Shown here in pieces: positions 12,324 to 61,452 of a DNA stretch of 64,000 bases. The stretch comes from a bacterium. Its GTDB lineage: Bacteria; Patescibacteriota; Microgenomatia; Woykebacterales; RBG-16-39-9b. The position numbers were made by a program, and so were the translations under genes. The notes under the pieces are model-generated. The model saw only the letters and a list, made by a program, of their open reading frames with translations, had not been told where the DNA came from and made no database searches. Within the stretch, counting starts at the first letter, position 1; every line of letters starts with the position of its first letter. The stretch covers positions 394,460 through 458,459 of the forward strand of contig JAUYID010000009.1 of assembly GCA_030704665.1 (NCBI GenBank), in the 5' to 3' direction.

Positions 12324-12382
12324 TGTCATTCTGAAGCGAAGCTGAAGAATCTTGAGATCCTTCACTAGTCGTTCAGGATGAC
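12324..12382. repeat. ORF-less palindromic element (MITE-like derivative of the GIY-YIG element)
   Basis: TGTCATTCTGAAGCGAAGCTGAAGAATCTT followed by GAGATCCTTCACTAGTCGTTCAGGATGACG. The two arms are the left and right TIRs of the GIY-YIG elements fused without an ORF. It sits at the boundary of the GC-rich block. Confidence 0.7.
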
Positions 12383-12500
12383 GTTAGGGTGTTGAATAAG
12401 ACTATTTAAGTAACTTTCGGGTGAGTGTTCGGGAGTTCTTTCGGGTCCTTCGGGTGCGAGCTAGGTTGGTTAAAACCGTTTGTGCTCGCACCCTTGACCT

Positions 12501-15897: not shown

Positions 15898-16146
15898 GGC
15901 AGAGGAGACAGGTCGGTAGCCGTGGGAACAATTACCACTACCCACGGCTACCCTCGCCTAGTTTATCCTCTCTAAGTCAGGATCTTTTTGTCATTCTGAA
16001 TGTAATGAAGAATCTCTTTTCCTTCTATCACCCTTGCAGCCAATAGTGACAAAGCTTCTAGATCCTCGTTTTCACGAGGATGACGACTATCATTATTAAA
16101 AATAAGTAATTGGAAGATGAAAAGATCTCCCTCCTTTGAGTTCTTC

Positions 16147-17783: not shown

Positions 17784-17786
17784 GAC

Positions 17787-21057: not shown

Positions 21058-21060
21058 GTT

Positions 21061-21194: not shown

Positions 21195-21407
21195 ATGCGA
21201 CAAAAAATTATTAAAGTTGGCAATTCGGCTGCAGTTACCATCCCAAAAAATATTCTTGAGGAAAAAAATCTTAAGATTGGTGACTTAGCTGAGTTTGATA
21301 TTCAGTCGATTAGCAAAAAAACAAAAGTTACCCCAGAATTTGTTGAATGGGTTGATAAGTATATCGAAAACAACCGCCCAGCACTTGAAGAGCTAGCCAA
21401 CAAATAA
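21195..21407 (+). CDS. AbrB/MazE/SpoVT-fold antitoxin
   Basis: IIKVGNSAAVTIPKNIL is the swapped-hairpin AbrB-type DNA-binding motif. 70 aa; 6 nt upstream of the doc gene. Confidence 0.8.
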   Translation: MRQKIIKVGNSAAVTIPKNILEEKNLKIGDLAEFDIQSISKKTKVTPEFVEWVDKYIENNRPALEELANK

Positions 21408-21413
21408 AGCAAC

Positions 21414-21791: not shown

Positions 21792-21826
21792 CAAAATTGG
21801 GGTTGGTGGACTAGATCCCTCTCCTT

Positions 21827-22600: not shown

Positions 22601-22745
22601 AACCCTCTCCTTGTTTAGTTTGGTTTGGATTGTAAGTTTCTTTTGGGTTGTTGTCAAAGTGAAAAATTTGAGAAAATTTGCCAATGAAAAAGGGAAGTCC
22701 TTTGCTGGGGCTTCCCTTGTTCGTGTTGTTCGCGCGGTTCGGATC

Positions 22746-23201
22746 TCAGGACTGGGCGAAGAGTCTGACACTGTTGGCCGCCTCGACGACGAGTTCGACG
22801 TCCTTCTTTGAATCGGGAACACCGGAGAAGGCAGCGACGCCGACGAAACTTTCGGGGCTGCAATCATCCAATGCGAAGAGAGCAACACCGCCTTCGAAGG
22901 TGGTCTCGATGTCCTTGCCGTGCCCGTTGCGGATCTTCTGTTCCAGCGGGCCGGTGTTGGCCTGCAGGAAGAGGGCGGTCCTAGCTTTCTTGTGCGCGGT
23001 TGCGTTGTGGCGCGGCTGCCAGTCTCCCATTGGAGTTTGAACGAGCACCTCGCCGGCCGGGTCGAGCACAATGAAGGCACCACGTCTGGGTTGCTTGCCG
23101 ATAAACTTCTCGCGAAAGTGTTCCCGTACGTAGGTTGCCATCTCCATCGCTGTCACGTCGCTGATCGAGCGTCTGATCCGAAGCTTGGACGGGTCAATCA
23201 T
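22746..23201 (-). CDS. GlcG/DUF336-family protein
   Basis: HKKARTALF...TFEGGVALFALDD...GVAAFSGVPDSKKDVELVVEAA match the conserved blocks of DUF336/GlcG. Confidence 0.6.
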   Translation of the reverse strand: MIDPSKLRIRRSISDVTAMEMATYVREHFREKFIGKQPRRGAFIVLDPAGEVLVQTPMGDWQPRHNATAHKKARTALFLQANTGPLEQKIRNGHGKDIETTFEGGVALFALDDCSPESFVGVAAFSGVPDSKKDVELVVEAANSVRLFAQS

Positions 23202-23339
23202 GTCTCTTCTCCCTCTGGAAAGCCAGATAGACTGGCGAACAAAACGTTATCGGAAATTATAGCAAAAATTGAGGCTAAAGTCAAATACTATAAGTCACTC
23301 GTAGCTGATATTTCCTACCGGAAATCAGCTACTGCGTGT

Positions 23340-23567
23340 CTTGCGTTCAAGCATAGTCTGACGACTATTTGCTTGATCTTGGGATTTTCAAAAGAAGTTG
23401 AGTTTTAAAGTCCCGCAACCACTGCGTGGTTGTAGGCTAATCTTTGAGGGCTCTATCAAGAAAAGCTTGCGTTCTACGAACTTGGGATTTTCGAAAGAGA
23501 ATAAGTTTTAAAGTCCCGCAACTGCTGCGCAGCTGTAGGCCTCTTTGAGGGCTAGATCAAGAAAAGC
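23340..23567. repeat. tandem direct repeat (about 126 bp then about 102 bp) with internal hairpin
   Basis: Both copies begin CTTGCGTTC...CTTGGGATTTTC...GTTTTAAAGTCCCGCAAC[hairpin]GTAGGC...TTTGAGGGCT..ATCAAGAAAAGC. The hairpin stems differ by compensatory changes (CCAC/GTGG versus CTGC/GCAG). Confidence 0.7.
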
Positions 23568-23618
23568 CAGGGATCCTAAAAATTGTTTTGATTGGAATAA
23601 AAACTGAGGTGTGAGGAG

Positions 23619-23648
23619 ACTCCCGTTGTTTGTTGCGCCAACGGGAGT
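23619..23648. repeat. conserved hairpin element, copy 1 (ACTCCCGTTG-N10-CAACGGGAGT)
   Basis: Perfect 10-bp inverted repeat 26 nt 3' of the TetR stop. Shares flanks GGAATAAAAA...GAGACTCCCG...GGGAGTCCCT with copy 3. Confidence 0.7.
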
Positions 23649-23673
23649 CCCTGGTCCTGTCTGGAAGAGCTCT

Positions 23674-24321
23674 TCAGTACTCTTTCAGGACAGCGCCTTG
23701 GGCAATCGAGAAGAGAGTCGCAGCGATCTCCCTGACGCTGGGTTCGGTTTCCCTGCGCAGGTGGTCAAAGGCCGCGAAGTTTGAGAGTTGGTTGAAAGTG
23801 CCAAAGCTGCAGAGCAGACAGAGCGTCCGAACCGCTTGGGCTTGGCTGACTCCCTTCTTCAGTTTTCCGGCAGAGAGGCGTTTCACCAAGTTTTCGATTT
23901 GGTGGCGCTGAAGGATCTCGAGCTCTTCTTGCGGCTGGAACTTCTCGCCCCGCAGAGTGAAGAAGCCTTCGAGACTGCGCATGATCTCGTAGTATCTGCA
24001 CCAGACTCTGACCCAAGTCTTCAGCACTTCTCGGAGTGCGACCACTGGGTCAGCGTGGAGAGAAGCTGTTTCAGTGCTATGAAGATCCCCTTCCTTGATT
24101 CGCCCGACTTCATCCTCGAAGATCGTGATGAGAAGAGCTTCCAAAGAGTGAAAGTGCTGGTAAACAGTGGGGCGGGTGAAACCGGCACTTTTGGCGATCG
24201 TCCGAATGTTGGCTGCGCAGAGACCCTCGTCTATGATCAGGGCTAGAGCAGAGTCAAGAATACGACGACGCGTCCGTGTAACAGTCTCGAGACGTTTGAC
24301 CGAGTGATACGGTCTTGGCAT
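23674..24321 (-). CDS. TetR/AcrR-family transcriptional regulator
   Basis: N-terminal HTH (RRRILDSALALIIDEGLCAANIRTIAKSAGFTRPTVYQHF) typical of TetR. Confidence 0.8.
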   Translation of the reverse strand: MPRPYHSVKRLETVTRTRRRILDSALALIIDEGLCAANIRTIAKSAGFTRPTVYQHFHSLEALLITIFEDEVGRIKEGDLHSTETASLHADPVVALREVLKTWVRVWCRYYEIMRSLEGFFTLRGEKFQPQEELEILQRHQIENLVKRLSAGKLKKGVSQAQAVRTLCLLCSFGTFNQLSNFAAFDHLRRETEPSVREIAATLFSIAQGAVLKEY

Positions 24322-24356
24322 TGCGGGTCCCTTTCTTTCCCTGGTAGTGGGTGGGA

Positions 24357-24386
24357 ACTCCCGTTGTTTGTTGCGCCAACGGGAGT
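24357..24386. repeat. conserved hairpin element, copy 2
   Basis: Identical 10-bp stems and loop to copy 1. Lies 22 nt 3' of the 24408 gene stop and 35 nt 5' of the TetR start. Confidence 0.7.
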
Positions 24387-24407
24387 CCCTGCTCTTTGTT
24401 TTTCCGC

Positions 24408-24926
24408 TTAGTCGACCAAACGCACTCCGTCAAGTGGTGGGGCGATGATCTGTCTGGCGCGAAATTCCAGGGTTACCGCTTCTTGCTCGACATTGTCAGC
24501 CTCGGAACGTTTCTTTCGTGCTTCTTCAGCCTTGACGGAGATTTGGGCGAGAAGAACGGTCCGCAGGGTCTGAAGTGTGAGAGAAACGTGAGCGTCCCAG
24601 TTGTAGGGTAGATTCTCAATCCCGCTTTCCATCCGGGCAATTCTTCCTTCTCTTCTTGAGAACAGGTACGAGAAGCTAGAATCGCTGGCGAAAGCGATCT
24701 TTAACCAGAACGACCCTCCCAGAAGTGTGAAGTAGAGCTGGTAGACTGTCGTTGCCTCAGCAGGAGGATACCGGTCCTCGTAGAAATTGATGCGGTGCAG
24801 CTCGTTGCTGAGACCAGAGAGATTGAAGATCTTGGTTCCAGCTTCCAGAGCACCTTTGTTAACGCTCGGATCAACTTCGCCTAGCGGCAAAGTGATACGA
24901 CAGCCCCTTGTCTCTTCCTGATCCAT
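24408..24926 (-). CDS. hypothetical protein
   Basis: 172 aa with no recognised motif. GC-rich codon usage like its neighbours. Confidence 0.4.
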   Translation of the reverse strand: MDQEETRGCRITLPLGEVDPSVNKGALEAGTKIFNLSGLSNELHRINFYEDRYPPAEATTVYQLYFTLLGGSFWLKIAFASDSSFSYLFSRREGRIARMESGIENLPYNWDAHVSLTLQTLRTVLLAQISVKAEEARKKRSEADNVEQEAVTLEFRARQIIAPPLDGVRLVD

Positions 24927-25059
24927 GACTCATCCCTTTCTTGCGGACTATCCGCAAAAACTTGTTCTGACACGACTATCGTGCAGATCAGAATGGATTT
25001 TACTAAAAATGGTTGGGTGATGCAACTATGGGTCTTGTGGAATAAAAATGTTGGTAGAG

Positions 25060-25086
25060 ACTCCCGTTTGTGGGCGAAACGGGAGT
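25060..25086. repeat. conserved hairpin element, copy 3 (ACTCCCGTTT-N7-AAACGGGAGT)
   Basis: 10-bp stem with a matching stem change (G to T and C to A) and a shorter loop. Lies 20 nt 3' of the 25106 gene stop. Confidence 0.65.
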
Positions 25087-25105
25087 CCCTTGATCTCTGC
25101 TTCTT

Positions 25106-25705
25106 CTAGCGGCGCCGTGTCAGCTCGCCCAGATCGATGACGTGGACTCCTCTCAGGTTGAGACCAGGTCGATGATCCTGTTGACAGGGGCGGATGTGAA
25201 GGTGGCAGTCCGGCGCGAAGCTTGGGTGTTCCTCGATCCACTTTCGGTGTGCTTCACGAACTGGCTCCATCAAGCCGGCGACGAACTCCTTCTCGAGGTG
25301 GTTCTGGGCCACATGCTGGAAGTGAGCGAAGACGTTGGTGTAGACGGTTTGGAAAGCCGGGGCTCCATCTTCCCTGGTCCAGGCTTCTTCCACCATTTCG
25401 CGTACCACGATTCGGTAGAGGGCCAAGATCTCCCGGGTCAGGGCTTCTCGATTCTCTGCCACCACGAAGTCACCTATCTCGGGGTCATTTTCGACCGCCT
25501 CCCTGACCGCGTCGATGTGATTTGTGACTCGGATGTCGCGGATAAGTCGTGCGGTGCTTTGCCCAGAGAGTGTGGGAAAAAGACCTCCCACCTCGGCCTC
25601 AACGGTGTCTGGGTTGTCCAAGAGGTAACCAAGACTGTAACCGGTTGTCACGATTGATCCTTCCTTTCGATCGCTAGGTTCCTTTTTGTGTTTAAATTTT
25701 AACAC
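25106..25705 (-). CDS. hypothetical protein
   Basis: 199 aa, largely helical. No confident family assignment. Confidence 0.4.
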   Translation of the reverse strand: MLKFKHKKEPSDRKEGSIVTTGYSLGYLLDNPDTVEAEVGGLFPTLSGQSTARLIRDIRVTNHIDAVREAVENDPEIGDFVVAENREALTREILALYRIVVREMVEEAWTREDGAPAFQTVYTNVFAHFQHVAQNHLEKEFVAGLMEPVREAHRKWIEEHPSFAPDCHLHIRPCQQDHRPGLNLRGVHVIDLGELTRRR

Positions 25706-25791
25706 ACTGCATCAACTATAGGGTAAGATGGGAGGTGGAAAGGAATTTATTTTAGAACTTGGGAGTGGAGTTGGATTTCGCTTCTGGAAAA

Positions 25792-26184
25792 TTAGGAAAT
25801 TTCTTTGATACTTCTCTTACAGTTCTTACTTCCGCAGTTGCAGGCCATCTCCATACCTGGAGGCATATCTTGAGAGTAATCGCTGGTTATTTCTTCACCT
25901 TTTTGAATAGTTCGTGTTGCTATATCAGAAAATTCTCTAGGTTCGGTATTGGCATCGCAAGAATGGTTGACGTATCTTTCAGGCTCTTGCATAGCGACAT
26001 ACTTACCGTCCTTGAAAGCAACATATTCTTGGTCTTTGTCTGAAAGTTGGGCAAACTCTTTTTTAGTCAAAAGGTGTGAGGTGTCCCACTGCAGCACCAC
26101 TTCGCCTTTGTGGAAGTTGCGAGCGGCGAAAACTCCCTGACCATCGATGTTTGAGTGTTCAAGAAAAACTTGGTCTGTTTTCAT
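25792..26184 (-). CDS. SET-domain protein (putative protein-lysine methyltransferase)
   Basis: NHSCDAN (the SET NHSC motif) plus a post-SET Cys cluster (CNCGSKNC) in a 130-aa protein. Confidence 0.75.
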   Translation of the reverse strand: MKTDQVFLEHSNIDGQGVFAARNFHKGEVVLQWDTSHLLTKKEFAQLSDKDQEYVAFKDGKYVAMQEPERYVNHSCDANTEPREFSDIATRTIQKGEEITSDYSQDMPPGMEMACNCGSKNCKRSIKEIS

Positions 26185-26585
26185 TTTACCTTGACTACAA
26201 GTTCTTCAAAACTAGTTTCGGGGTCTAGTTCTCGACTGAAGACGCGGTCTTCAAACTCGACTAGAGTCACCTCGGCGGTGATGCGCACAGTCCCTTCTTT
26301 GAGGTGGCCGCCCACTACTGAGCCATCTTTGCGGGAGACGCTGATGTGGATGTGAGACTCCCCTTCTCCGAGAGTTCCTTCGACAGAGACGATCTCCAAG
26401 TCTTCTTCAAAAACTTTTTTATCTGCCTTTTCCGGAGTGGCTCCGGGCATCCGTAAAGTTACTTGGTTCAAGCCGCCGACAATACTTATTATAGTAGAGG
26501 CCGTGATCGAGTTGTCCGCACAATATTGGAGCAAAGAGGCACGAAGTTTTTCTCTCGGGTGGAGTCGGAAGGTGTGGAATTTCAA
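26181..26585 (-). CDS. PPC-domain (DUF296) protein
   Basis: TIISIVGGLNQVTLRMPG...EIVSVEGTLGEGESHIHISVS...VVGGHL match PCC/DUF296 conserved blocks. Overlaps the SET gene by 4 nt. Confidence 0.65.
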   Translation of the reverse strand: MKFHTFRLHPREKLRASLLQYCADNSITASTIISIVGGLNQVTLRMPGATPEKADKKVFEEDLEIVSVEGTLGEGESHIHISVSRKDGSVVGGHLKEGTVRITAEVTLVEFEDRVFSRELDPETSFEELVVKVK

Positions 26586-26914
26586 AAAAGCTTACCCCCA
26601 ATTTTGGCGTCTTTGTCTGGTCGGACTAGTACTACTCTCCCCTGCTCGTCTGGGACACCTAAAGTTAAACATTCGGAAATAAAGGGGCCAATTTGTTTGG
26701 CTGGGAAGTTGACGACACCGAGTACCAACGTTCCGGTTAGTTCTTCTTTTTTGTAAAGATCGGCGACTCGAGCGCTGGATTTTTTAATACCAATTTCCGG
26801 ACCAAAATCGATAGTCAACTTATAAGCCGGTTTTCGAGCCTGCGGAAAATCCTCAACTTTAATTATCTCGCCGAGCCGAATATCGAGCTTAGAAAAATCT
26901 TCGTAGGAAATCAT
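26582..26914 (-). CDS. tRNA-binding OB-fold protein (CsaA/Trbp111-like)
   Basis: EDFSKLDIRLGEIIKVEDFPQARKPAYKLTIDFG is the tRNA-binding Myf-domain signature. Confidence 0.75.
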   Translation of the reverse strand: MISYEDFSKLDIRLGEIIKVEDFPQARKPAYKLTIDFGPEIGIKKSSARVADLYKKEELTGTLVLGVVNFPAKQIGPFISECLTLGVPDEQGRVVLVRPDKDAKIGGKLF

Positions 26915-26919
26915 AAAAG

Positions 26920-26990
26920 GAGTTTAACACTGAAAAAAGAAGCTGACAAATGGGTGGCTTTTGATCTCTCTCCTTTTTCAGAGATCGAAA
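26920..26990. repeat. about 70-nt repeat with GATCTCT...AGAGATC hairpin, copy 1
   Basis: TTTAACACTGAAAAAAGAAGCTGACAAATGGGTGGCTTTTGATCTCTCTCCTTTTTCAGAGATC. Similar to the copy at 27925-27995. Confidence 0.5.
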
Positions 26991-27014
26991 ACCTTTCAAC
27001 CAGTCTTTGATTCA

Positions 27015-27185
27015 CTAAAGTCGGGGTCTTGTGACTGGAAGATAGTACCAGCCCAGACCCAGAACGACCAGACTAACCCCGACACCACAGAGAGCAGCGG
27101 GATTATCAGGAATCTGGGTCGATAAAGCCAGTGTCACGGCCAACCCCAGAATAAATGCAGCCACAATAAGCTTCACCGCAGTCAT
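27015..27185 (-). CDS. small 2-TM membrane peptide (56 aa), not in the ORF track
   Basis: MTAVKLIVAAFILGLAVTLALS...GVGVSLVVLGLGWYYL; weak SD AGGTGG. The track ORF 27106..27339 is an overlapping artefact. Confidence 0.3.
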   Translation of the reverse strand: MTAVKLIVAAFILGLAVTLALSTQIPDNPAALCGVGVSLVVLGLGWYYLPVTRPRL

Positions 27186-27196
27186 GACCACCTACT

Positions 27197-27760
27197 TTAG
27201 GGTAGAGACCCTTCGTAGATGACAGCGTAAGTGTAGCGACCGCTCTCGGCGATGACAACCCCAATTCCGATCCGCTCGTAGTGCGGATTGAGAGTGTTGG
27301 CCCGATGAGGCAGACTCTCCCAGAGCATCTTTGCCGCACGAGTGGCCGTTCCTTCGATTGGCCAGTTGTTCCAAGCCAGATTCTCCCCCGCCCAAGCGTG
27401 TCCTATTCGCGCTTGGTCCATGAGACAGACGAAGTTGCAACCATCCGGTGGTGCGTGACCGAAGTAGTGATTGAGCGCCATGTCTTCGGCTCGATACTGA
27501 GCTACTATACTCAGAGTTGGATCGAGTCGGAGCGCGTTTCTACCAGTCCTCATTCTTTGTTCGTTGAGTAGAAGAAAGAGCTGGTCGGCCGGGTTTGCGG
27601 GTGGTGCTGGAGTCGCTGTTGGTAAGACAACCACAGTTGCGGTTGGTACCGGCTCGACTGTTGCTCCCGCGACCGCAGCTTCTTTCTTGGCTTCAGAACG
27701 GCAGGCCAGAGTCAGGAGCATCAGCCCCGTTGCGACGGCAACTATAAGTTTAGAGCGCAT
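27197..27760 (-). CDS. secreted CAP/SCP/PR-1-domain protein
   Basis: Signal peptide with LTLAC. LNEQRMRTGRNALRLDP...HYFGH...GENLAW are CAP-domain conserved motifs. Confidence 0.7.
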   Translation of the reverse strand: MRSKLIVAVATGLMLLTLACRSEAKKEAAVAGATVEPVPTATVVVLPTATPAPPANPADQLFLLLNEQRMRTGRNALRLDPTLSIVAQYRAEDMALNHYFGHAPPDGCNFVCLMDQARIGHAWAGENLAWNNWPIEGTATRAAKMLWESLPHRANTLNPHYERIGIGVVIAESGRYTYAVIYEGSLP

Positions 27761-27924
27761 GATCTCACCCTTTCAGTTGGTTGAGTCCTCACACAAGGAG
27801 GAGACTCAGACAAAACCGCCGCAATACGCAGACAGTCAAGCCTTGATACGATCTTTCTGAGTTTCTTCACGATCGACTCCTTCAGAGCCCGCTTGCTTGT
27901 TCGAAAGTGATTTTAACACTAAAG

Positions 27925-27995
27925 GTAAAGTTTGGAACTAGTTAAAAAAGGGAAAAGTGGTCGTGACCTCTCTCCTTTTCAGAGATCTCGACCTT
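27925..27995. repeat. about 70-nt repeat, copy 2
   Basis: TTTTAACACTAAAGG...AAAAAAGGGAAAAGTGGTCGTGACCTCTCTCCTTTTCAGAGATCTCGACC. Lies immediately 3' of the 28000 gene stop. Confidence 0.45.
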
Positions 27996-27999
27996 ATTG

Positions 28000-28479
28000 T
28001 CAGTTCTTGATCCAGCCGCCGGCGAAACTGCTCTCGTAGAAATCATCAGGTCCCATATAGATCCCGGCAGTTTCGTAACCGGCGAACTTACCGAAGCCGG
28101 AGTTGAACATCTCGTAGGTTTGGGAGTAGTAGACCATACCACCGTCTTCGAAGTCGATTTCTCCCCGACCGAGTCTGACTGAGTGCAGCAGTTGTCGTGA
28201 GACTTGTCTTAGAAAGGCATCCGCATCGCGTCTTGTGGTACGGAGTAAACCTCGAAGTGTCATCCCCCAGATCGGCTCTTCATCGGCAAAGACCAGTTCT
28301 TGGCTTTGGGTTACTTTGCTCCCAACAGACCAAATCTCGAAGCGGAAGCGCTTTCGGCTGTAAACCCAGACTTCGGCTCGCGGAAGCAGCACTGCCGCAG
28401 GTCGCTCGCTTTCTTTTCCCGACAAGTGGTGGTAGCGAGACTCAATGACGAAGTCGCGAACTTCTTTTACTCTTAACAT
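28000..28479 (-). CDS. hypothetical protein
   Basis: 159 aa with no motif recognised. Confidence 0.4.
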   Translation of the reverse strand: MLRVKEVRDFVIESRYHHLSGKESERPAAVLLPRAEVWVYSRKRFRFEIWSVGSKVTQSQELVFADEEPIWGMTLRGLLRTTRRDADAFLRQVSRQLLHSVRLGRGEIDFEDGGMVYYSQTYEMFNSGFGKFAGYETAGIYMGPDDFYESSFAGGWIKN

Positions 28480-28496
28480 GAGTCCAACTCCTTTAC

Positions 28497-28613
28497 TTAA
28501 GCCCGAGTTCGGTAATCAGCTCTGGCTTGACCTCTGACATTGAAGTTGCGCAGGAACCGCGCAGCCGAAAGGTTGCGCATGTCCGCTCCTGAGCCAAGAT
28601 TGACCGCTTTCAT
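28497..28613 (-). CDS. possible 38-aa basic peptide
   Basis: ATG lies 7 nt after GAGGGGG. MKAVNLGSGADMRNLSAARFLRNF. Speculative. Confidence 0.2.
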   Translation of the reverse strand: MKAVNLGSGADMRNLSAARFLRNFNVRGQARADYRTRA

Positions 28614-28659
28614 CTTGATCCCCCTCTTTCTTGATTGGAGCTATTTTAGCAGAAACCAC

Positions 28660-28680
28660 CAAACAAGAGTGTTATACTAG
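28660..28680 (+). promoter_or_regulatory. extended -10 promoter (TGTTATACT) upstream of the histidine kinase gene
   Basis: TGnTATACT lies about 25 nt upstream of the ATG. Similar GTTATAAT or GTTATAAC elements precede the genes at 49080, 21195 and 16571. Confidence 0.35.
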
Positions 28681-28702
28681 AAAAATAAGTTAATTTCAAA
28701 AA

Positions 28703-30496
28703 ATGTTTGCTGATCTGTCCATCATTTTTGACTTTCGTTTTAACCTCTACGCTCTACCTTCACTTCTGACGATCATTATTAATATTGTCCTTTTGCTTCT
28801 GATTCAGAGGCGTGGAGCAAAAAACCAAGCCAACCGTTGGTTCAGTTTGGTGCTCGGAGTTTTGGTTCTTTGGGGGATTTCGGAATTTCTCGATCGTTCC
28901 AGTGCCAACCCGACGACCTCTCTTTTTTGGGATTACGTCGGCCGTCCAGCTTGGATCGGACTGCCGACACTACTTTTTACTTTCGTTATTCATTTTACCG
29001 GCAGAGAAAGTTTTTTTCGCTCCCGCCTCAACCAGCTTCTGGTCTTTCTCCCTAGTTTGGTCTTTCTTTTTCTCGCCTGGAATACCAATGTCATTCTCAA
29101 CAACACTGTCAGCGATAACCACCCAGCTTTTTGGGGCTGGCAAATCTCACCACAAGCTGATCTCTACTCTCTTTTTCTTGTTTGGTTTAGCTTTTTGACG
29201 ATTGCTTCAGTAGGACTGTTGACCCGTTTTTATTTGCGTACCCCAGATTTGATCAACAAACGCCAAACTCTTTTTATCATCATCGGTACCTTGATTCCGA
29301 TTGTTGGTGGTTTGGTGACTGATGCGATTTTGCCAGCCTTGGGTGTAGAGACTGTTTTGCCCATTGCGGTTCTGCTTTCTTGTGGTTTGAGTCTGTCGAT
29401 TTCTTACGCGATTCTGCGTTATAGTCTTTTTGTGGTCAACCCAACACTGACTTCGGAAACAGTGCTGGATAACATGTCCGAGGCAATTTTTGTCATCCGT
29501 CCGAACAATATCGTCGAGCAAGTCAATAAAGCCATTTCGCGGCTTTTGGGTTTCAAAAAAGAAGAACTGATTGGAGCCAATGTCAGCCGAATTTTTTCTG
29601 ATCAGGAGACTTGGCAGAGATTTTCAGAAGAGATTTTGAAAAAATTGCCAGAGAAGGACGTGATCGCCAATTTCGAAACAAAATTTCGCAGCCGTCAAGG
29701 AGACAAAATACCAATCAGTTTTTCCGCAGCCGCTTTGAAGGAAGATGGACAAGTCCAAGGTATTGTCGGAATTGCTCGTGATGTGCGAGAAGAAAAACAA
29801 CTTGAGGAAATGAAACTCGATTTCGTTTCTATGGCAGCGCATCAACTCCGCACTCCCTTGACCGCTATCAGAGGCTATCTGTCTCTTCTTCAAGAGCAAA
29901 TTGCCGACAAATTGAGCCCGGATGAAAGAGCTTTTTTGACGAAAACTTCAATTGCTTCAAACCGGCTCGCTGCTTTGGTCGAAAATCTCCTTTCCGTTTC
30001 CGGAGTTGAGCACGGAGAAATCAAGATTTCCAAAAGCGAAGTCAACTGGGAGGATTTAATTGCCGAAGTGGTTGGGATTTTCAAACAAGAAGCAGAAACA
30101 CACAAAGTTGAGCTGGTTTTCCACAAACCGGAGAAGGAACTAGCCAAAATCTCGGTTGATAAATTTCGGATGAGTGAGGTTCTTTCCAATTTAATTAGCA
30201 ACGCTGTCGCTTACAACAAAGAGGGTGGCAAAGTTGAGGTCTTCGTGCGGGAAAAGGACGACCAAATCGTTACTTATGTTCGCGATACCGGCAGTGGAAT
30301 ACCAGCTGAAGATCTACCCAAACTTTTTAGCAAATTTTTTCACGTCTCCCGCTCTCTCGTGCAAGGAACCAAAGGTACCGGCCTGGGTCTCTACATTGCC
30401 AAAGGTTTGATTGAGGCACACGGAGGGAAAATTGAGGTTGAGTCAGAGCTAGGCAAAGGCAGTACTTTTTCTTTTTCGCTTCCGATTGGTAATTAA
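28703..30496 (+). CDS. sensor histidine kinase (7-TM sensor, PAS, HisKA, HATPase_c)
   Basis: H-box [20 protein letters not shown]-box [12 protein letters not shown] and G-boxes DTGSGIP / [18 protein letters not shown]. The N-terminus is polytopic. Confidence 0.85.
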
Positions 30497-30506
30497 AATC
30501 GTGTTA

Positions 30507-30839
30507 TGTCATCCTGAGCGATTAGCGAAGGATCTCGTCCCCCAAGTCTTTCCAAACCTGATTGTTGGTTTCTATTAAACTGATCTTTTTTGATCTCAGC
30601 CAACCTTTTATTCTCTTCTCGCTTTCAATAGCTTGACTTGAATTTTCAAATTCTTCAAAGAAAACAAGCTTATTCAGATTGTACTTTTTGCTAAACCCAT
30701 CGATCAGTTTATTTTTATTCTCAAAAAGTCTTCTTTTTAGATTGTTTGTAACACCTGTGTAGAGAACTCTGTTTAGCTTGTTGGTAATAATATAAACGTA
30801 ATAACTCATGAGATTCTTCAGCTCCGCCTCAGAATGACA
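30507..30839 (-). mobile_element. GIY-YIG element bounded by about 30-bp terminal inverted repeats
   Basis: Left arm TGTCATCCTGAGCGATTAGCGAAGGATCTC and right arm GAGATTCTTCAGCTCCGCCTCAGAATGACA are inverted repeats. The GIY-YIG ORF fills the space between them exactly: its ATG abuts the right arm and its last codons (EILR, stop) are encoded by the left arm. Confidence 0.7.
30522..30809 (-). CDS. GIY-YIG nuclease-family protein (95 aa)
   Basis: YYVYIITNKLNRVLYTGVTNNLKRRLFEH contains the GIY-YIG motifs and matches the COG2827/YhbQ-like small URI-domain proteins. Confidence 0.85.
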   Translation of the reverse strand: MSYYVYIITNKLNRVLYTGVTNNLKRRLFENKNKLIDGFSKKYNLNKLVFFEEFENSSQAIESEKRIKGWLRSKKISLIETNNQVWKDLGDEILR

Positions 30840-31339: not shown

Positions 31340-31396
31340 TGTCATTCTGAAGCTAGCTTCGATTACGAAACTAAGCGAGCGGAGCTGAAGAATCTC
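31340..31396. repeat. solo left-arm copy of the TIR with internal palindrome GAAGCTAGCTTC
   Basis: TGTCATTCTGAAGC..GAGCGGAGCTGAAGAATCTC. Followed by the motif TTGCTTGTCCAA, which also occurs at about 45450 and 55625. Confidence 0.55.
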
Positions 31397-31457
31397 TTGT
31401 TGCAAACTTAACTTCTTCTTTTTGCTTGTCCAATGTAAGTTCTTAATTCTGAATTCA

Positions 31458-32810
31458 TCATTCTCCATTCTTCGTTCTTAACTTTTCCAGGTGCTCCTTG
31501 ATGTAACGTTCGTAACCGATCGCTTTTGGTTCATAATATTTTCTGCCTTTTAACCGCTGCGGCAGAAAGTCTTGTTTGACCCATCCACCTTCGAAATCAT
31601 GGGCATATTTGTAGCCCTTGCCATAGTCAATCTCTTTCATCAACTTAGTGACGGCGTTGCGTAGATGCAGTGGAACCGGCTCGTTGAGAGTAGCTCGCAC
31701 GTCACGTTGGGCCTTTTGGAGAGCGATGTAGGAAGCATTGCTTTTTGGGGTTGTTGCTAGGTAGGTTGCTGCCTGGGCAAGGTTGAGAGCAGCTTCAGGT
31801 AGACCTACATATTGTAGAGCGGTAGCGGCCGCCACCGCGATGGTGAGAGCTTTCGGATCAGCATTGCCCACGTCTTCAGAGGCAAGAATGATCATCCGTC
31901 GGGCGATGAACTCCGGGTCTTCGCCTGCTTCCAGCATTCTGGCTAGCCAGTAGACCGCCGCATCGGGATCAGAGCCACGCATGGATTTGATGAAGGCGGA
32001 AACCACGTTGTAGTGTTCTTCTCCGGTTTTATCATACAAAAGTTTTTTATCTCCCAGAGCTTGAGCAATTTTTTCTTCGCTAACTTTGCGCTCGCCGTCT
32101 CGTTGTCCGGTCAAATTGACCGCAATCTCCAGAGCATTGAGAATTGTTCGAGCGTCCCCGTTGGCGGTCCCCAAAAGTAAATCAAAGGCTTTGCTTTCAA
32201 CTTTGGGATTCAAACTACCCAGGCCCTTGGCCTTATCCCTTAAGGCACGTTTAACTAGTTCTTTAATATCGTCAACTTCCAAGCGTTCTAAAATTAAAAC
32301 CTTAGTGCGGGACAAAAGTGGAGCGATGACTTCAAAGGAAGGATTTTCAGTGGTAGCGCCGATCAAAGTAATCGTTCCGTCCTCAACGAAAGGAAGAAGG
32401 TAAGCTTGCTGGGATTTGTTCCAGCGGTGCATTTCGTCAATACAGAGAACGGTGCGCTCCCCCTTTTCCTCAGCGCGAATCTTGGCTTCGGAAATTACTT
32501 TCTTGATATCATTGACTCCGACCTCGACCGCAGAGTGAAACTCAAAGAAACTTTTGGTTTCGGCAGCAATTATCTTTGCAAGAGTTGTTTTCCCACTGCC
32601 TGGTGGCCCCCAGAAAATCAAAGAGGGAATTTGATCTTTTTTGATCAAAGTTGAAATCAATTTGCCCGGCCCAACTAGGTGATTTTGACCGACAAATTCA
32701 GCTAGAGACTCCGGGCGCAAGCGCTCGGCCAAAGGTTTTTGGTCGTTTTGGTCTTGGGGTTGGCGCAGAAGTTTTTTGGTGCGAGCTTTGCTGACAAGTT
32801 TCATACCCAT
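31458..32810 (-). CDS. rarA: replication-associated recombination protein A (MgsA/RarA AAA+ ATPase)
   Basis: GPPGSGKTTLA Walker A, DEMHRWNKSQQ Walker B and the C-terminal MgsA helical domain. 450 aa. Confidence 0.9.
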   Translation of the reverse strand: MGMKLVSKARTKKLLRQPQDQNDQKPLAERLRPESLAEFVGQNHLVGPGKLISTLIKKDQIPSLIFWGPPGSGKTTLAKIIAAETKSFFEFHSAVEVGVNDIKKVISEAKIRAEEKGERTVLCIDEMHRWNKSQQAYLLPFVEDGTITLIGATTENPSFEVIAPLLSRTKVLILERLEVDDIKELVKRALRDKAKGLGSLNPKVESKAFDLLLGTANGDARTILNALEIAVNLTGQRDGERKVSEEKIAQALGDKKLLYDKTGEEHYNVVSAFIKSMRGSDPDAAVYWLARMLEAGEDPEFIARRMIILASEDVGNADPKALTIAVAAATALQYVGLPEAALNLAQAATYLATTPKSNASYIALQKAQRDVRATLNEPVPLHLRNAVTKLMKEIDYGKGYKYAHDFEGGWVKQDFLPQRLKGRKYYEPKAIGYERYIKEHLEKLRTKNGE

Positions 32811-32861
32811 TGGTATGAGCTATCTTACTTCGGGAAAGGTTTCGGGTCAACAAAATTTGAG

Positions 32862-32891
32862 GATAGATTCTTCACTGTGCTCAGAATGACA
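32862..32891. repeat. solo right-arm TIR copy
   Basis: GATAGATTCTTCACTGTGCTCAGAATGACA, 52 nt upstream of the rarA start. Confidence 0.5.
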
Positions 32892-36153: not shown

Positions 36154-36202
36154 CGGAAAGATTCTACCACTTTCAAAAAGAAGCTGACAATTGAGTTATT
36201 TC

Positions 36203-36254
36203 GTCATCCTCGCGTAGGTGAGGATCTAGATTCTCAGTCAAGCTGAGAATGACA
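36203..36254. repeat. palindromic element variant (two short hairpins, GTCATCC...GAATGACA ends)
   Basis: GTCATCCTCGCGTAGGTGAGGATCTAGATTCTCAGTCAAGCTGAGAATGACA. Same architecture as the copy at 55517. Confidence 0.55.
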
Positions 36255-41041: not shown

Positions 41042-41416
41042 TTAGACGACCCAACTTTCCAGTTTAAAGAAAATTTGAAAAAGACTGCTTAAAAGCAAAA
41101 CTACCACTGGAATGAGGAGGTAATAAAAATAAAACGGATGTTCAAGAATCGGAGTTAGGAAAGGCACGACACTGAAGGCAAAGAGCAGAAAAGGCAGGAC
41201 CAAAAGAATGATGGCAAACTGGACAGCCGCACGTAAGGTCGGGAAAGTGCGGTGAATGAAACTTTCAAAAACGAGCCATTGTAGTAGCGTCCGGCTGAAA
41301 AGAAAAACGAGAATAAAAGCCCCCAGATTGGGCTGATAGTTGGTACCAAACTGCAAAGCAGTGGCTGAGGCAAAGATAACTGTCAAACAGTCAATAAAAA
41401 CAAAAATATATTTCAT
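41042..41416 (-). CDS. small polytopic membrane protein
   Basis: The first ATG of the track ORF is contributed by the inverted-repeat element (ATGACA), so the start is set at the downstream MKYIFV. Confidence 0.35.
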   Translation of the reverse strand: MKYIFVFIDCLTVIFASATALQFGTNYQPNLGAFILVFLFSRTLLQWLVFESFIHRTFPTLRAAVQFAIILLVLPFLLFAFSVVPFLTPILEHPFYFYYLLIPVVVLLLSSLFQIFFKLESWVV

Positions 41417-41428
41417 GGCAGTAGTAAA

Positions 41429-41529
41429 TGTCATCCTGAACTTGGTTCAGGATCTAGAGATTCCGAAACGAGTCTTCGACCGTGAGCTCAGACCGAATCG
41501 GTTCGGAATGACACAAGGACGGGATGACA
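41429..41529. repeat. composite palindromic element (two nested hairpins with TGTCATCC...GGGATGACA ends)
   Basis: ATCCTGAAC/GTTCAGGAT and ATTCCGAAC/GTTCGGAAT stems. Confidence 0.55.
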
Positions 41530-43659: not shown

Positions 43660-43992
43660 TGTCATCCTGAGTGACTAGCGAAGGATCTCTTCTGCTAAGT
43701 CATTCAAATTAGGGTTTTTAGCTTGAATTAAATTTATCTTTTTAATTCTTAGCCAGCCTTTAATCTTCTTTTCTGCTCTCAAAGCGTCCTCAACATTGTT
43801 AAATTCTTCAAAGAAGATCAGCTTAGTTAGATTGTACCTCTTTGTAAACCCCTCAATCAATTCGCCTTTATGCTCCAAAACTCTCCGCTCCAGGTTGTTT
43901 GTTACTCCTGTGTACAGGGAAGTATTAGTTTTGTTAGTTAAAATATAAACGTAATAACCCACTAGATTCTTCGCCTTTAGCTCAGAATGACA
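43660..43992 (-). mobile_element. second GIY-YIG element bounded by TIRs
   Basis: Left arm TGTCATCCTGAGTGACTAGCGAAGGATCTC, right arm TAGATTCTTCGCCTTTAGCTCAGAATGACA. The ORF spans from the right arm (GTG start) to the left arm (EEILR, stop). Confidence 0.7.
43675..43962 (-). CDS. GIY-YIG nuclease-family protein (95 aa), paralogue of 30522..30809
   Basis: GYYVYILTNKTNTSLYTGVTNNLERRVLEHK; about 65 percent identical to the first copy. GTG start. Confidence 0.85.
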   Translation of the reverse strand: MGYYVYILTNKTNTSLYTGVTNNLERRVLEHKGELIEGFTKRYNLTKLIFFEEFNNVEDALRAEKKIKGWLRIKKINLIQAKNPNLNDLAEEILR

Positions 43993-45404: not shown

Positions 45405-45566
45405 TGTCACTCTGAGCGTTGAGCGAAGAATCTCTTTCTCTACTTCTTTTGCTTGTCCAAAAAGAAGTAGACAAGAAAAAGACACCCTAGAGCTGCGTCA
45501 GCTGTTGCACTAAAAGCAAAAAGACTTCGGGACTTCCTCTGGAATTCTCTCACTTCGTTCGGTCAG
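45405..45566. repeat. extended TIR-derived element (left arm, internal hairpin, degenerate right arm)
   Basis: TGTCACTCTGAGCGTTGAGCGAAGAATCTC, then the hairpin CTACTTCTTTTGCTTGTCCAAAAAGAAGTAG, then ...ATTCTCTCACTTCGTTCGGTCAG. Confidence 0.5.
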
Positions 45567-50288: not shown

Positions 50289-50319
50289 TTGGGTAAATAA
50301 TAACGGAACTGGAGGTAAA

Positions 50320-50428
50320 TGTCATTCTGAGCGCTTAGCGAAGAATCTAAAAGAGATCTTTCACGGAGCCTGCACTTGAGACTCTTCACTTCGTTCAGAG
50401 TGACAGAGTCGAAGTGTTCAGGATGACA
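50320..50428. repeat. nested composite of TIR-derived palindromes
   Basis: TGTCATTCTGAGCGCTTAGCGAAGAATCT, then GAGATCTTTCACGG..., then GAGACTCTTCACTTCGTTCAGAGTGACA, ending ...TTCAGGATGACA. Confidence 0.6.
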
Positions 50429-55516: not shown

Positions 55517-55604
55517 CTGTCACCCTCGAGAAATCGAGGATCTAGATTCTCAGTAGAGCGCTACACACTCTGCGCTTGATTACAATCTTCAAGCTGAGAA
55601 TGAC
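55517..55604. repeat. palindromic element variant with 40-nt internal insertion
   Basis: TGTCACCCTCGAGAAATCGAGGATCTAGATTCTCAG...CAAGCTGAGAATGACG. Same architecture as the copy at 36203. Confidence 0.55.
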
Positions 55605-57394: not shown

Positions 57395-57476
57395 TGTCAT
57401 CCTGAGTGTTAACGAAGGATCTCTGAGGTTCTAGCGGAATATGAACTTGAGACTCTTCGCCCTGCTAAAAGTGACA
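57395..57476. repeat. ORF-less TIR pair (left arm plus variant right arm GAGACTCTTCGCCCTGCTAAAAGTGACA)
   Basis: TGTCATCCTGAGTGTTAACGAAGGATCTC on the left. Confidence 0.6.
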
Positions 57477-60861: not shown

Positions 60862-60921
60862 TGTCATTCTGAGGCGAAGCCGAAGAATCTCTTGAGATCC
60901 TTCGTTGCACTCAGGATGACA
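60862..60921. repeat. archetypal ORF-less TIR pair (MITE-like)
   Basis: TGTCATTCTGAGGCGAAGCCGAAGAATCTC-tt-GAGATCCTTCGTTGCACTCAGGATGACA. This is the GIY-YIG element with its ORF precisely removed. Confidence 0.7.
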
Positions 60922-61412: not shown

Positions 61413-61452
61413 GTCATCCTCAACTAGATTACCGATCAGGTCGGGAATGACA
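61413..61452. repeat. short palindromic element variant
   Basis: GTCATCCTCAACTAGATTACCGATCAGGTCGGGAATGACA, 8 nt after the receiver gene stop. Confidence 0.45.

What the first reader, a model, noticed from the sequence alone, without database searches (positions are those of the whole stretch)
60862..60921. A family of ORF-less palindromic (MITE-like) elements derived from the GIY-YIG TIRs populates intergenic regions
There are at least 13 copies, at about 12324-12382, 31340-31396, 32862-32891, 36203-36254, 41429-41529, 45405-45566, 50320-50428, 55517-55604, 57395-57476, 60862-60921 and 61413-61452, plus the two full elements. The archetype at 60862 is left arm, tt, right arm, as if the ORF were cleanly excised. 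The other copies include solo arms, arms with inserted secondary hairpins, and nested composites. Several carry the remnant coding string GAGATYCTTCGCTAA (EILR, stop). One copy provides the first ATG of gene 41042, and another abuts the rarA upstream region. Each forms a long imperfect hairpin of about 25-30 bp and could act as a terminator, an RNA-stability element or a recombination hotspot.
Basis: seen in the sequence. Interest (0 to 1): 0.8.

Follow-up and report, generated by a model that had tools for sequence, protein, structure and literature searches.

The report
Ssn-nuclease hairpin repeats (SRM/CGTC-REP family)
The short palindromes are real and belong to an already described class of bacterial hairpin repeats that accompany small GIY-YIG "Ssn" single-stranded-DNA nucleases, so this window holds a new example of a known system rather than a new kind of element.

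Summary
The window holds 14 sites with about 25 copies of a 29-31 nt arm, TGTCA-[hairpin]-TCTC. Two sites are 333-bp units with a 95-aa GIY-YIG gene between inverted arms. Twelve have no ORF. All 12 lie outside ORFs of 100 aa or more.

A covariance model built only from ORF-flanking arms recovers 13 ORF-less arms at E<1e-4, with no stray hits. Each arm is itself a hairpin with strong compensatory covariation.

This is a known kind of element. The arms match the "CGTC/TGTC-tagged REP" superfamily (Di Nocera 2013: Neisseria dRS3, Rickettsia RPE-4/-6) and the "NTS/SRM" repeats. Chenal et al. 2025 showed these are the ssDNA binding and cleavage sites of Ssn, a 94-aa single-domain GIY-YIG nuclease whose gene is typically flanked by them. 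The determinants mapped in Neisseria are invariant here: GTC before the palindrome, C after it, and protein residues Y6, Y17 and E64.

"MITE-like" holds only loosely. There are no target-site duplications and no transposase. Related Patescibacteria do show lineage-specific in-frame insertions of such arms in GluRS, so the family does insert. The terminator idea is not supported.

Verdict: new member of a known kind, of moderate interest.

The parts
60862..60921 (.). Archetypal ORF-less doublet. It consists of a start-type arm (60862-60892, +), the spacer tt, and an end-type arm (60893-60921, -). It lies between the MscS-like gene and a response-regulator gene.
   Evidence: (39.5 and 41.6 bits).
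30507..30839 (-). Full 333-bp unit. The end-type arm is 30507-30537 (+), the 95-aa Ssn-like GIY-YIG ORF is 30522-30809 (-), and the start-type arm is 30809-30839 (-). The ATG directly follows the start arm, and the stop codon lies in the loop of the end arm.
   Evidence: (PF01541, E 9e-16).
43660..43992 (-). Second full 333-bp unit. The arms are 43660-43690 (+) and 43962-43992 (-). The 95-aa GIY-YIG ORF is 43675-43962 (-), has a GTG start, and is 62% identical to the first.
   Evidence: (E 1e-16).
12324..12383 (.). ORF-less doublet of a start-type and an end-type arm with a 0-1 nt spacer. Its left arm differs from that of 60862 by one compensatory pair (A-T against G-C).
15989..16085 (.). Unlisted pair. 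The arm 15989-16017 (+) and the variant arm 16058-16085 (-) are separated by about 40 nt. The variant arm is the only one in the window that fits the published SRM search pattern.
31340..31396 (+). Single arm with an extended distal stem-loop, lying 3' of rarA. Together with 32863-32891 it brackets rarA (31458-32810).
   Evidence: partial hit at 31344-31395.
32863..32891 (-). Single arm lying 5' of rarA. It is the outward-facing partner of the arm at 31340.
   Evidence: 38.9 bits; 40.0 bits.
36202..36254 (.). Doublet of two variant arms, ATCCTCG..GAGGAT and ATTCTCAGC..CTGAGAAT, joined through ATCTAGAT. Both arms are fully Watson-Crick paired.
   Evidence: two hairpins, -11.8 kcal/mol, z = -4.0.
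41429..41529 (.). Composite site. The arm 41429-41457 (+) faces an inverted NTS-like arm (ATTCCGAA..TTCGGAAT) that has a second arm-like core nested in its loop, followed by an extra partial end, GGGATGACA.
45405..45566 (.). Arm 45405-45435 (+) plus a decayed inverted partner near 45541-45566, with about 105 nt of unrelated spacer between them.
   Evidence: The partner was identified by eye only.
50320..50428 (.). Composite site with the arm 50320-50350 (+), an inverted arm 50377-50405 (-), and a further partial inverted arm 50407-50427.
55518..55604 (.). Doublet of variant arms. The right arm carries a long insertion in its loop.
57395..57476 (.). Doublet with a 23-nt spacer. The arms are 57395-57424 (+) and 57448-57476 (-).
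61413..61452 (.). Remnant site. The NTS-like arm 61424-61452 (-) reads GTCATTCCCGACCTGATCGGTAATCTAG. A truncated opposite end, GTCATCCTCAAC, sits at 61413.
   Evidence: 18.6 bits, E 0.03.

Best explanation
The arms are Ssn-related hairpin repeats. They belong to the NTS/SRM class, which is the CGTC/TGTC-tagged REP superfamily.

When DNA is single-stranded, each arm folds into a small hairpin. The basal stem is A-T/T-A/Y-R/C-G/T-A. In most copies this is followed by a tandem G.A/A.G pair, then a variable distal stem and a loop. An invariant GTC sits 5' of the hairpin and an invariant C sits 3' of it.

The two 95-aa GIY-YIG proteins encoded between inverted arms at 30507-30839 and 43660-43992 are Ssn-family site-specific ssDNA endonucleases. 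By analogy with the enzymes characterised from Neisseria and Wolbachia, they would bind the forward strand of an arm and cut a few nucleotides 5' of it. In an inverted pair that places one cut just outside each end of the pair, on opposite strands.

The 12 ORF-less sites are non-autonomous copies of the arm pair. They resemble REPINs more than classical MITEs. They are recognised in trans, they persist in intergenic DNA, and selection keeps each hairpin foldable.

Shown here: the family relationship, the hairpin covariation, the intergenic placement, the conservation of the mapped determinants, and the fact that this arm type inserts into new places in related genomes.

Inferred: cleavage by these particular proteins, and their role in spreading the arms or in restricting recombination of ssDNA.
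For: Protein:
- Both ORFs are single-domain GIY-YIG proteins (PF01541, E 1e-16).
- They are 95 aa long and carry Y6, Y17 and E64 at the positions mutated in the 94-aa N. meningitidis SsnA.
- Y17, R27, E64 and N83 are invariant, and Y6 is at least 90% conserved, in 24 homologues.

Architecture:
- Inverted arms flank the gene in the window.
- The same holds around the homologues fetched from four other genomes.
- One of these is a 46%-identical paralogue in L003, flanked by the canonical Neisseria-type NTS TGTCATTCCCGCGAAGGCGGGAATC.

Arms:
- GTC before the palindrome and C after it are invariant in 20 of 20 arms. These are the positions found critical for cleavage and for binding (PMC11893778).
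- Covariation is strong. Pair 12-30 is UA in 11 arms and CG in 9, with none unpaired. Pair 17-25 shows five pair types with none unpaired. The covariation score is 0.368 against 0.150 in shuffles (0 of 500 reach it), and slid-register controls score much lower.

Distribution:
- All ORF-less sites lie outside long ORFs. NTS repeats are likewise rarely in genes.
- Arms occur as outward-facing, heterotypic pairs, as reported for CGTC REP dimers.

Spread:
- The same doublet occurs in at least 120 metagenome stretches, usually far from any ssn gene (3 of 80 loci hold one).
- GluRS of related Patescibacteria carries lineage-specific in-frame insertions of a doublet or of single arms. These are absent from 85-88%-identical orthologues.
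Against: - Only 1 of about 21 arms fits the published degenerate SRM search pattern. The tandem G.A type breaks its stem definition.
- I could not compare the proteins directly with N. meningitidis SsnA or assign them to CDD cd10448, because neither is available in the tools.
- No biochemical data exist for these proteins.
- The two ssn genes are only 62% identical and no two arms are identical, so nothing points to recent activity in this genome.
- GIY-YIG enzymes hydrolyse DNA and form no covalent intermediate. A nuclease alone therefore does not explain insertion.
- Nearest-neighbour folding of single arms is not better than shuffles (z between -0.9 and +0.5). The support for the hairpin comes from covariation, not from energy.
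Confidence: 0.78

Rival explanations
1. In-situ wreckage. Each ORF-less site is the local remnant of a full arm-ssn-arm unit that lost its ORF by deletion. The copies are neither mobile nor functional and are simply decaying.
For: - Doublets keep one start-type and one end-type arm in the order of the full unit.
- The spacer AT retains the ORF's ATG in 11 of 49 metagenomic doublets. A GAG microhomology at both ORF ends could mediate the deletion.
- Composite and truncated copies exist.
- No two copies are identical.
Against: - Differences between copies are compensatory and preserve the hairpin. Examples are 12324 against 60862, and pairs 12-30 and 17-25. Neutral decay would not do this.
- tblastn finds no ORF remnant at any site.
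- The in-frame insertions of 10-19 aa in GluRS cannot plausibly have passed through a 333-bp stage containing stop codons in an essential gene.
- Only 3 of 80 doublet loci hold an ssn gene.
Confidence: 0.12
2. RNA-level elements. The palindromes act mainly as transcription terminators or mRNA-stabilising 3' hairpins kept by the host. Their link to the GIY-YIG genes is incidental.
For: - All sites lie between genes, mostly 6-120 nt downstream of a stop codon.
- The long arm-arm hairpins are more stable than shuffles (z = -3 to -4.3).
- REPs in other bacteria have such effects (abstracts listed).
Against: - No copy is followed by a T-run, and none is among the 35 terminator-like calls in 44-64 kb.
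- Doublets occur in both orientations relative to the flanking genes.
- The conserved asymmetric flanks (GTC on one side, CTC on the other) and the intra-arm covariation fit protein recognition of one strand.
- SsnA does not bind RNA.
- There is no Rfam match.
Confidence: 0.07
3. Classical MITEs, or REP/REPIN elements mobilised by a DDE or Y1 (RAYT) transposase encoded elsewhere. On this view the GIY-YIG genes are passengers.
For: - The elements have terminal inverted repeats, small size, multiple copies and an intergenic location.
- The organisation as dimers resembles REPINs.
Against: - There are no target-site duplications of 2-5 nt in 56 elements.
- The tag is TGTC/CGTC, not the GTAG of RAYT-associated REPs.
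- Di Nocera et al. found no transposase associated with CGTC REPs.
- In every genome examined, the gene found between the arms is the GIY-YIG gene.
Confidence: 0.03

Closest known systems
Ssn nucleases with NTS/SRM repeats (Chenal et al. 2025, Nat Commun 16:2388, PMC11893778)
   Same: - A single-domain GIY-YIG protein of about 94 aa, with its gene flanked on both sides by inverted hairpin repeats of 20-50 nt.
- The repeat frame is (C/T)GTCAT-palindrome-ATC.
- GTC 5' of the palindrome and C 3' of it are conserved.
- The repeats are dispersed, rarely lie in genes, and are many per genome.
- Y6, Y17 and E64 are present.
   Different: - Most arms here carry a tandem G.A/A.G internal loop (CTGAG..CGAAG) and fail the published SRM regex.
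- The copies are almost all tight inverted pairs rather than oriented single repeats clustered around virulence genes.
- The host is an uncultured, probably Patescibacteria-like lineage, a group the paper does not mention.
- Activity of these proteins is untested.
CGTC-tagged REP superfamily (Di Nocera et al. 2013, BMC Genomics 14:522, PMC3733652), including Neisseria dRS3 and Rickettsia RPE-4/-6
   Same: - A terminal CGTC/TGTC tag.
- A stem that begins A-T, T-A.
- A short loop and a 3-nt tail.
- Predominance of inverted dimers, often heterodimers.
- Occasional in-frame intragenic copies encoding 20-30 aa.
   Different: - That study found no dedicated enzyme for these repeats. Here two are encoded in the window.
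- The stems here are interrupted by non-canonical G.A pairs.
- The tail is CTC or CTA rather than CCA.
REP/REPIN elements with RAYT (Y1 HUH) transposases, and IS200/IS605
   Same: - Short hairpin repeats recognised as ssDNA.
- Inverted doublets as the likely unit.
- No target-site duplication.
- The gene for the enzyme is flanked by its own repeats.
   Different: - The enzyme fold and chemistry differ: a hydrolytic GIY-YIG nuclease against an HUH tyrosine enzyme with a covalent intermediate.
- The tag is GTAG in REPs and TGTC here.
- Mobilisation by RAYT has population-level support. Mobilisation by Ssn has none yet.
Classical bacterial MITEs (for example Correia/NEMIS elements, RUP)
   Same: They are small, carry no ORF, have terminal inverted repeats, occur in multiple copies, are mostly intergenic, and resemble the ends of a longer coding element.
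   Different: There are no target-site duplications, no DDE transposase parent, and the arms are structured hairpins rather than simple TIRs.
GIY-YIG homing endonucleases (for example I-TevI)
   Same: They share the GIY-YIG catalytic domain and form a selfish-looking compact gene unit.
   Different: They have no separate DNA-binding domain, are not in an intron or intein, and are expected to target a ssDNA hairpin rather than a dsDNA homing site.

Membership tests
Ssn nuclease family (cd10448; PMC11893778) | A single-domain GIY-YIG protein of about 94 aa | tested here: met
   Both ORFs are 95 aa. PF01541 covers residues 3-75 and 3-77, and no other domain is found.
Ssn nuclease family (cd10448; PMC11893778) | Catalytic residues equivalent to Y6, Y17 and E64 of N. 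meningitidis SsnA | tested here: met
   Y6, Y17 and E64 are present at the same numbering in both ORFs. Y17 and E64 are invariant and Y6 is at least 90% conserved in 24 homologues. The mutants are described.
Ssn nuclease family (cd10448; PMC11893778) | Sequence homology to Nm SsnA (tblastn E<1e-10), or assignment to CDD cd10448 | not testable with these tools
   Neither the Nm SsnA sequence nor CDD is available. The link is indirect only: 46% identity (tblastx E 3e-27) to an L003 paralogue flanked by canonical NTS. No PDB relative was found by sequence.
Ssn nuclease family (cd10448; PMC11893778) | Gene flanked 5' and 3' by hairpin repeats in inverted orientation | tested here: met
   The same is seen around homologues in L003, L005, L007 and L009.
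Ssn nuclease family (cd10448; PMC11893778) | Site-specific cleavage of ssDNA only, a few nt 5' of the repeat | not testable with these tools
   This needs purified protein and oligonucleotide assays.
NTS/SRM repeats (PMC11893778) | Match to the published search pattern HGTCWYN(0-2)YYVSBRHN(0-5)WNVSBRGN(0-2)RNCYNB | tested here: not met
   Only 16058-16085 matches, against 0.32 expected by chance. The CTGAG..CGAAG arms break the pattern's stem definition.
NTS/SRM repeats (PMC11893778) | A hairpin core with conserved asymmetric flanks: GTC 5' (cleavage determinant) and C 3' (binding determinant) | tested here: met
   G7, T8, C9 and C33 are invariant in 20 of 20 arms. Hairpin covariation is shown. 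The determinants are described.
NTS/SRM repeats (PMC11893778) | Rarely inside genes | tested here: met
   0 of 12 ORF-less sites lie in ORFs of 100 aa or more. In metagenome loci, 9 of 49 doublets lie in open frames of 150 aa or more, against 76% of random windows.
CGTC-tagged REPs (PMC3733652) | A terminal CGTC/TGTC tag, and a stem starting with complementary A-T pairs in positions 1 and 2 | tested here: met
   The tag is TGTC in 16 arms and CGTC in 4. Pair 1 is A-T in 20 of 20 arms and pair 2 is T-A in 16 of 20.
CGTC-tagged REPs (PMC3733652) | A continuous stem of 8-9 bp, a loop of 4-5 nt, and a CCA-like tail | tested here: inconclusive
   The variant arms have 8-9 Watson-Crick pairs. The main type has 5 pairs, then 2 non-canonical pairs, then 2-3 pairs. 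Loops are 3-5 nt and the tail is CTC or CTA.
CGTC-tagged REPs (PMC3733652) | Predominantly inverted dimers, often heterodimers | tested here: met
   Arms alternate + then - throughout the window. All the tight window doublets checked, and both full units, pair unlike arms. 37 of 49 metagenomic doublets are heterotypic, against about 25 expected.
Classical MITE | Target-site duplication flanking the element | tested here: not met
   Matches of 2-5 nt between the two flanks are no more frequent than in shuffled pairings, across 56 elements.
Classical MITE | Ends derived from an autonomous element that encodes a transposase | tested here: not met
   The only gene found between the arms is a GIY-YIG nuclease. 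I did not scan every window ORF for transposase domains.
Classical MITE | Presence/absence (insertion) polymorphism | tested here: inconclusive
   This could not be tested for the window's own copies. The only other contig of this organism is 100% identical, and no close relative was found. For the same arm type in related lineages the criterion is met: GluRS insertions are absent from 85-88%-identical orthologues.
REP/REPIN-RAYT | A GTAG tag and an associated Y1 HUH transposase | tested here: not met
   The tag is TGTC/CGTC. The flanked gene is GIY-YIG. CGTC REPs are not associated with RAYTs.
Intrinsic terminator | A GC-rich hairpin followed by a T-run | tested here: not met
   None of the six sites in 44-64 kb is among the terminator-like calls. 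The flanks shown lack T-runs.

The most novel reading that the evidence does not exclude
The arm doublets are non-autonomous mobile elements, and the Ssn GIY-YIG nuclease mobilises them in trans through a single-stranded-DNA intermediate without target-site duplication. That would be a transposition or homing-like route based on a hydrolytic GIY-YIG enzyme plus host repair. It would be distinct from DDE, HUH, serine and tyrosine systems. The window, with two ssn paralogues and 12 ORF-less copies in 50 kb of a genome of about 0.94 Mb, would be a compact natural example. My evidence shows that such arms do insert repeatedly, for example into GluRS loops in related Patescibacteria. It does not show who moves them.
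Probability: 0.3. Interest if true: 0.75.

Novelty: new member of a known kind. Interest (0 to 1): 0.4.

Why it matters
The 2013 survey of CGTC-tagged REPs found no enzyme associated with them. The 2025 Ssn work supplied a cognate nuclease but left open whether it spreads the repeats.

This window adds four things:
- An example from a small, uncultured, probably Patescibacteria-like genome.
- An arm subtype with a conserved tandem G.A motif that the published SRM search pattern misses. Surveys using that pattern therefore undercount the family.
- Evidence that the ORF-less unit is the start-arm plus end-arm doublet.
- From related genomes, clear lineage-specific insertions into an essential gene.

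For annotation it has a practical use. It explains recurrent spurious peptides such as CHSERSEES, VILSEAKDL and EILRFAQNDK. It also explains arm-derived start and stop codons in gene calls.

Tried and rejected
- Rfam, at gathering thresholds on the whole window and by E-value on 60.8-61.5 kb, gave no relevant family.
- The generic inverted-repeat finder missed the elements, because their arms differ by indels.
- My first loose pattern was no better than shuffles (73 hits against 56.5) and I discarded it.
- The PDB sequence search with the Ssn-like protein found nothing. NCBIfam gave only a sub-threshold group I intron endonuclease hit.
- The only other contig of this organism (Logan SRR13727534) is 100% identical, so it shows no polymorphism.
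- An apparent 100-nt difference between L005 and L006 turned out to be a scaffold gap of Ns.
- The doublet inside the TrhP/U32 gene of L005 aligns to a variable linker of E. coli TrhP, so it is not clean proof of insertion.
- tblastn for ORF remnants inside the longer composite sites found none.
- The search for target-site duplications was negative.
- My first viral-contig pattern was too rigid and gave 0 hits. A looser one gave one true doublet, in L015, and three chance palindromes.
- The paper's supplements are not held, so I could not obtain the SsnA sequence.

Full report
**What is in the sequence.**
The stretch 60862-60921 reads TGTCATTCTGAGGCGAAGCCGAAGAATCTC tt GAGATCCTTCGTTGCACTCAGGATGACA. 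These are two imperfectly complementary 29-31 nt arms joined tail to tail.

Two 333-bp units, at 30507-30839 and 43660-43992, have the same arms around a 95-aa ORF on the minus strand. The ATG or GTG follows the start arm directly, and the stop codon lies in the loop of the end arm. Both ORFs are single-domain GIY-YIG proteins (PF01541, E about 1e-16). They are 62% identical to each other.

**Is it more than chance?**
A strict arm pattern gives 24 hits against 1.33 in dinucleotide shuffles. A covariance model of 20 arms (R1) finds only one further arm in the window, at 61424-61452.

To avoid circularity I built a second model (R2) from only the ten arms that flank GIY-YIG genes. Four came from the window and six from three unrelated metagenomic genomes. 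R2 recovers 13 ORF-less arms at E<1e-4 and two more at about 0.03, with no stray hits.

The second criterion, equal occurrence in coding regions, also fails. None of the 12 ORF-less sites lies in an ORF of 100 aa or more, although such ORFs cover 78% of the window.

**Anatomy.**
Aligned arms show an invariant GTC, then a hairpin, then an invariant C followed by T. The basal stem is A-T, T-A, Y-R, C-G, T-A. In 14-15 of 20 arms it is followed by a tandem G.A/A.G. In the variant arms this position is Watson-Crick paired. A 2-3 bp distal stem and a 3-5 nt loop complete the hairpin.

Covariation is strong. Pair 12-30 is U-A in 11 arms and C-G in 9, with none unpaired. Pair 17-25 shows five pair types with none unpaired. 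The covariation score is 0.368 against 0.150 in shuffles (0 of 500 reach it), and every slid register scores far lower. The left arms of 12324 and 60862 differ within the hairpin only by one compensatory pair.

Nearest-neighbour energies of single arms are unremarkable. The case for the intra-arm hairpin therefore rests on covariation.

Along the window the arms strictly alternate + then -, with their GTCA ends facing outward. Even the two 'solo' arms, 31340(+) and 32891(-), form such a pair, with rarA between them. In both full units the start arm is ATTCT..AGAAT and the end arm is ATCCT..AGGAT. The tight doublets at 12324 and 60862 keep one arm of each type in the same order.

**Identity.**
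The literature search led to two papers.

Chenal et al. 2025 (PMC11893778) describe Ssn, a family of single-domain GIY-YIG proteins of about 94 aa (CDD cd10448). These are site-specific ssDNA endonucleases. In N. meningitidis, SsnA binds the NTS repeat CGTCATTCCCGCGMAVGCGGGAATCYRG as a hairpin on one strand only and cuts a few nucleotides upstream. It does not act on dsDNA or RNA. The three bases before the palindrome govern cleavage, and the C after it is the most critical base for binding. Of the homologues, 71% have NTS-like 'SRM' repeats nearby and 42% have them on both sides.

Di Nocera et al. 2013 (PMC3733652) had already catalogued 'CGTC-tagged REPs', in which the tag is often TGTC. The stems start A-T, T-A. 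The repeats occur mostly as inverted dimers, often heterodimers, and sometimes sit in frame inside genes. The family includes Neisseria dRS3 and Rickettsia RPE-4/-6. The authors noted that it lacked a dedicated transposase.

The window's arms fit these descriptions. So do the proteins:
- They are 95 aa long.
- Y6, Y17 and E64 are in register with the SsnA mutants.
- Y17, R27, E64 and N83 are invariant across 24 homologues.

Independent genomes give further support. Each homologue I fetched is flanked by inverted arms. In L003 a 46%-identical paralogue sits between pgk and tpi, flanked by the canonical sequence TGTCATTCCCGCGAAGGCGGGAATC.

Two caveats remain. Only one window arm (16058-16085) satisfies the published SRM regular expression. 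I could not compare the proteins directly with Nm SsnA or with cd10448.

**Is it MITE-like?**
There are no target-site duplications and no flank consensus in 56 elements. No transposase is involved. The two ssn genes and all the arms are diverged, so nothing indicates recent activity in this genome. No strain variation is available for this organism.

The doublet is nevertheless a widespread unit. Of these I could parse 49 clean doublets:
- Spacers are 0-6 nt, and 'AT' occurs 11 times, which preserves the ORF's ATG.
- 37 of 49 doublets are heterotypic.
- 40 of 49 lie outside open frames of 150 aa or more, whereas 76% of random windows fall inside one.
- Only 3 of the 80 loci hold an ssn gene.

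Insertion itself is demonstrable in relatives. In L075 the doublet encodes CHPEQSEGSRDSSVPQND inside GluRS. This segment is absent from the E. coli, H. pylori and T. thermophilus enzymes and from orthologues 85-88% identical (P0242, P0243). Other close orthologues carry different arm-encoded peptides at the same loop or at a second loop. Examples are DPEILHSVQND, VIPANAGIH, SRHSRAGGN, VIPGGKPGIS and VIARHEAIS.

The family therefore does colonise new sites, as already reported for intragenic CGTC REPs and RPEs. What moves the arms remains unknown. A hydrolytic GIY-YIG nuclease would need host repair or recombination to complete an insertion.

**Function.**
The best-supported reading is that the arms are the ssDNA recognition sites of the two resident Ssn-type nucleases. 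In an inverted pair, the predicted cut lies just outside each end, on opposite strands.

In Neisseria this activity restricts recombination of incoming ssDNA that carries NTS. Whether this organism is competent for DNA uptake is unknown. Compensatory evolution in dispersed copies argues that each hairpin is under selection, either for the element or for the host.

The terminator idea is not supported. None of the copies has a T-run, none of the sites in 44-64 kb is called terminator-like, and there are no Rfam matches.

**Source.**
The window is identical to part of a 938-kb contig of an NCBI MAG labelled only 'bacterium', and to a Logan contig from SRR13727534. The nearest named relatives of its ClpC are Patescibacteria groups at 36-39% identity. 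The GluRS relatives carrying arm insertions are also labelled Patescibacteria, Berkelbacteria or WS5. I did not establish the phylum rigorously.

**Verdict.**
It missed that this is the known Ssn/SRM (CGTC-REP) system. It overreaches with the terms 'MITE' and 'terminator'. I classify the finding as a new member of a known kind, of moderate interest.

Noticed in passing
window 31340-32891: The recombination-associated AAA+ gene rarA/mgsA (31458-32810) is bracketed by an outward-facing arm pair, 31340(+) and 32891(-). This is the same geometry as the ssn units and matches the 'NTS-gene-NTS' configuration discussed for Neisseria. It could be a cargo-carrying unit or a coincidence.
   Followed up: partly
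window 50297-50325 (minus strand): The outward-facing end ATGACA of an arm serves as the -35-like hexamer of a promoter-like match (ATGACA, 17 nt, TATTAT) that reads out of the element toward the HIT-family gene. Arm ends resemble TTGACA, so they may create outward promoters.
   Followed up: no
window 41416-41434: ORF 41042-41434 takes its first ATG from the arm end (TGTCAT read on the other strand). A second in-frame ATG six codons later opens a signal-peptide-like MKYIFVFI... and is the likelier start. The arms also generate spurious ORFs, such as 15972-16247 (91 aa, no Pfam hit).
   Followed up: partly
window 16058-16085, 36202-36229, 55518-55545, 61424-61452: At least two further arm subtypes occur here, ATCCTCG..CGAGGATCTAGA and the Neisseria-like ATTCCCG..CGGTAATCTAG. 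No matching ssn gene lies in the window, which suggests additional ssn paralogues elsewhere in the genome.
   Followed up: no
L003 6700-7100: In a related metagenomic genome, an ssn paralogue flanked by canonical NTS-type arms sits between pgk and tpi, inside the otherwise conserved gap-pgk-tpi gene cluster. A second paralogue with CTGAG-type arms lies 3 kb away.
   Followed up: partly
L075 10699-10753; proteins P0245, P0249, P0268, P0269: GluRS of closely related Patescibacteria-like lineages carries several independent in-frame insertions of single arms or doublets, of different SRM subtypes, in the same two surface loops.
   Followed up: yes
L005 2351-2405: A doublet plus a partial arm is translated in frame (CHPERSEGSRDSSVPQNDNEGGQNDK) inside a TrhP/peptidase-U32 gene. 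It lies in a linker that is also variable in E. coli TrhP.
   Followed up: yes
metagenome loci L016-L095: Doublets preferentially combine one ATCCT..AGGAT arm with one ATTCT..AGAAT arm (37 of 49, against about 25 expected). This puts G.T or A.C mismatches into the long arm-arm palindrome. The bias may avoid perfect long palindromes or may mark the two ends as different. Some of the loci are orthologous, so the counts are not fully independent.
   Followed up: partly
window 1-12300 and 16100-30500: There are no arms at all in these 26 kb. All 14 sites lie in 12.3-16.1 kb and 30.5-61.5 kb, a region rich in small accessory and hypothetical genes.
   Followed up: no
protein P0131: A ClpC homologue 52% identical to the window's ClpC is labelled 'Candidatus Nanoarchaeia archaeon' in NCBI. 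This is probably a binning or taxonomy error for a bacterial contig.
   Followed up: no
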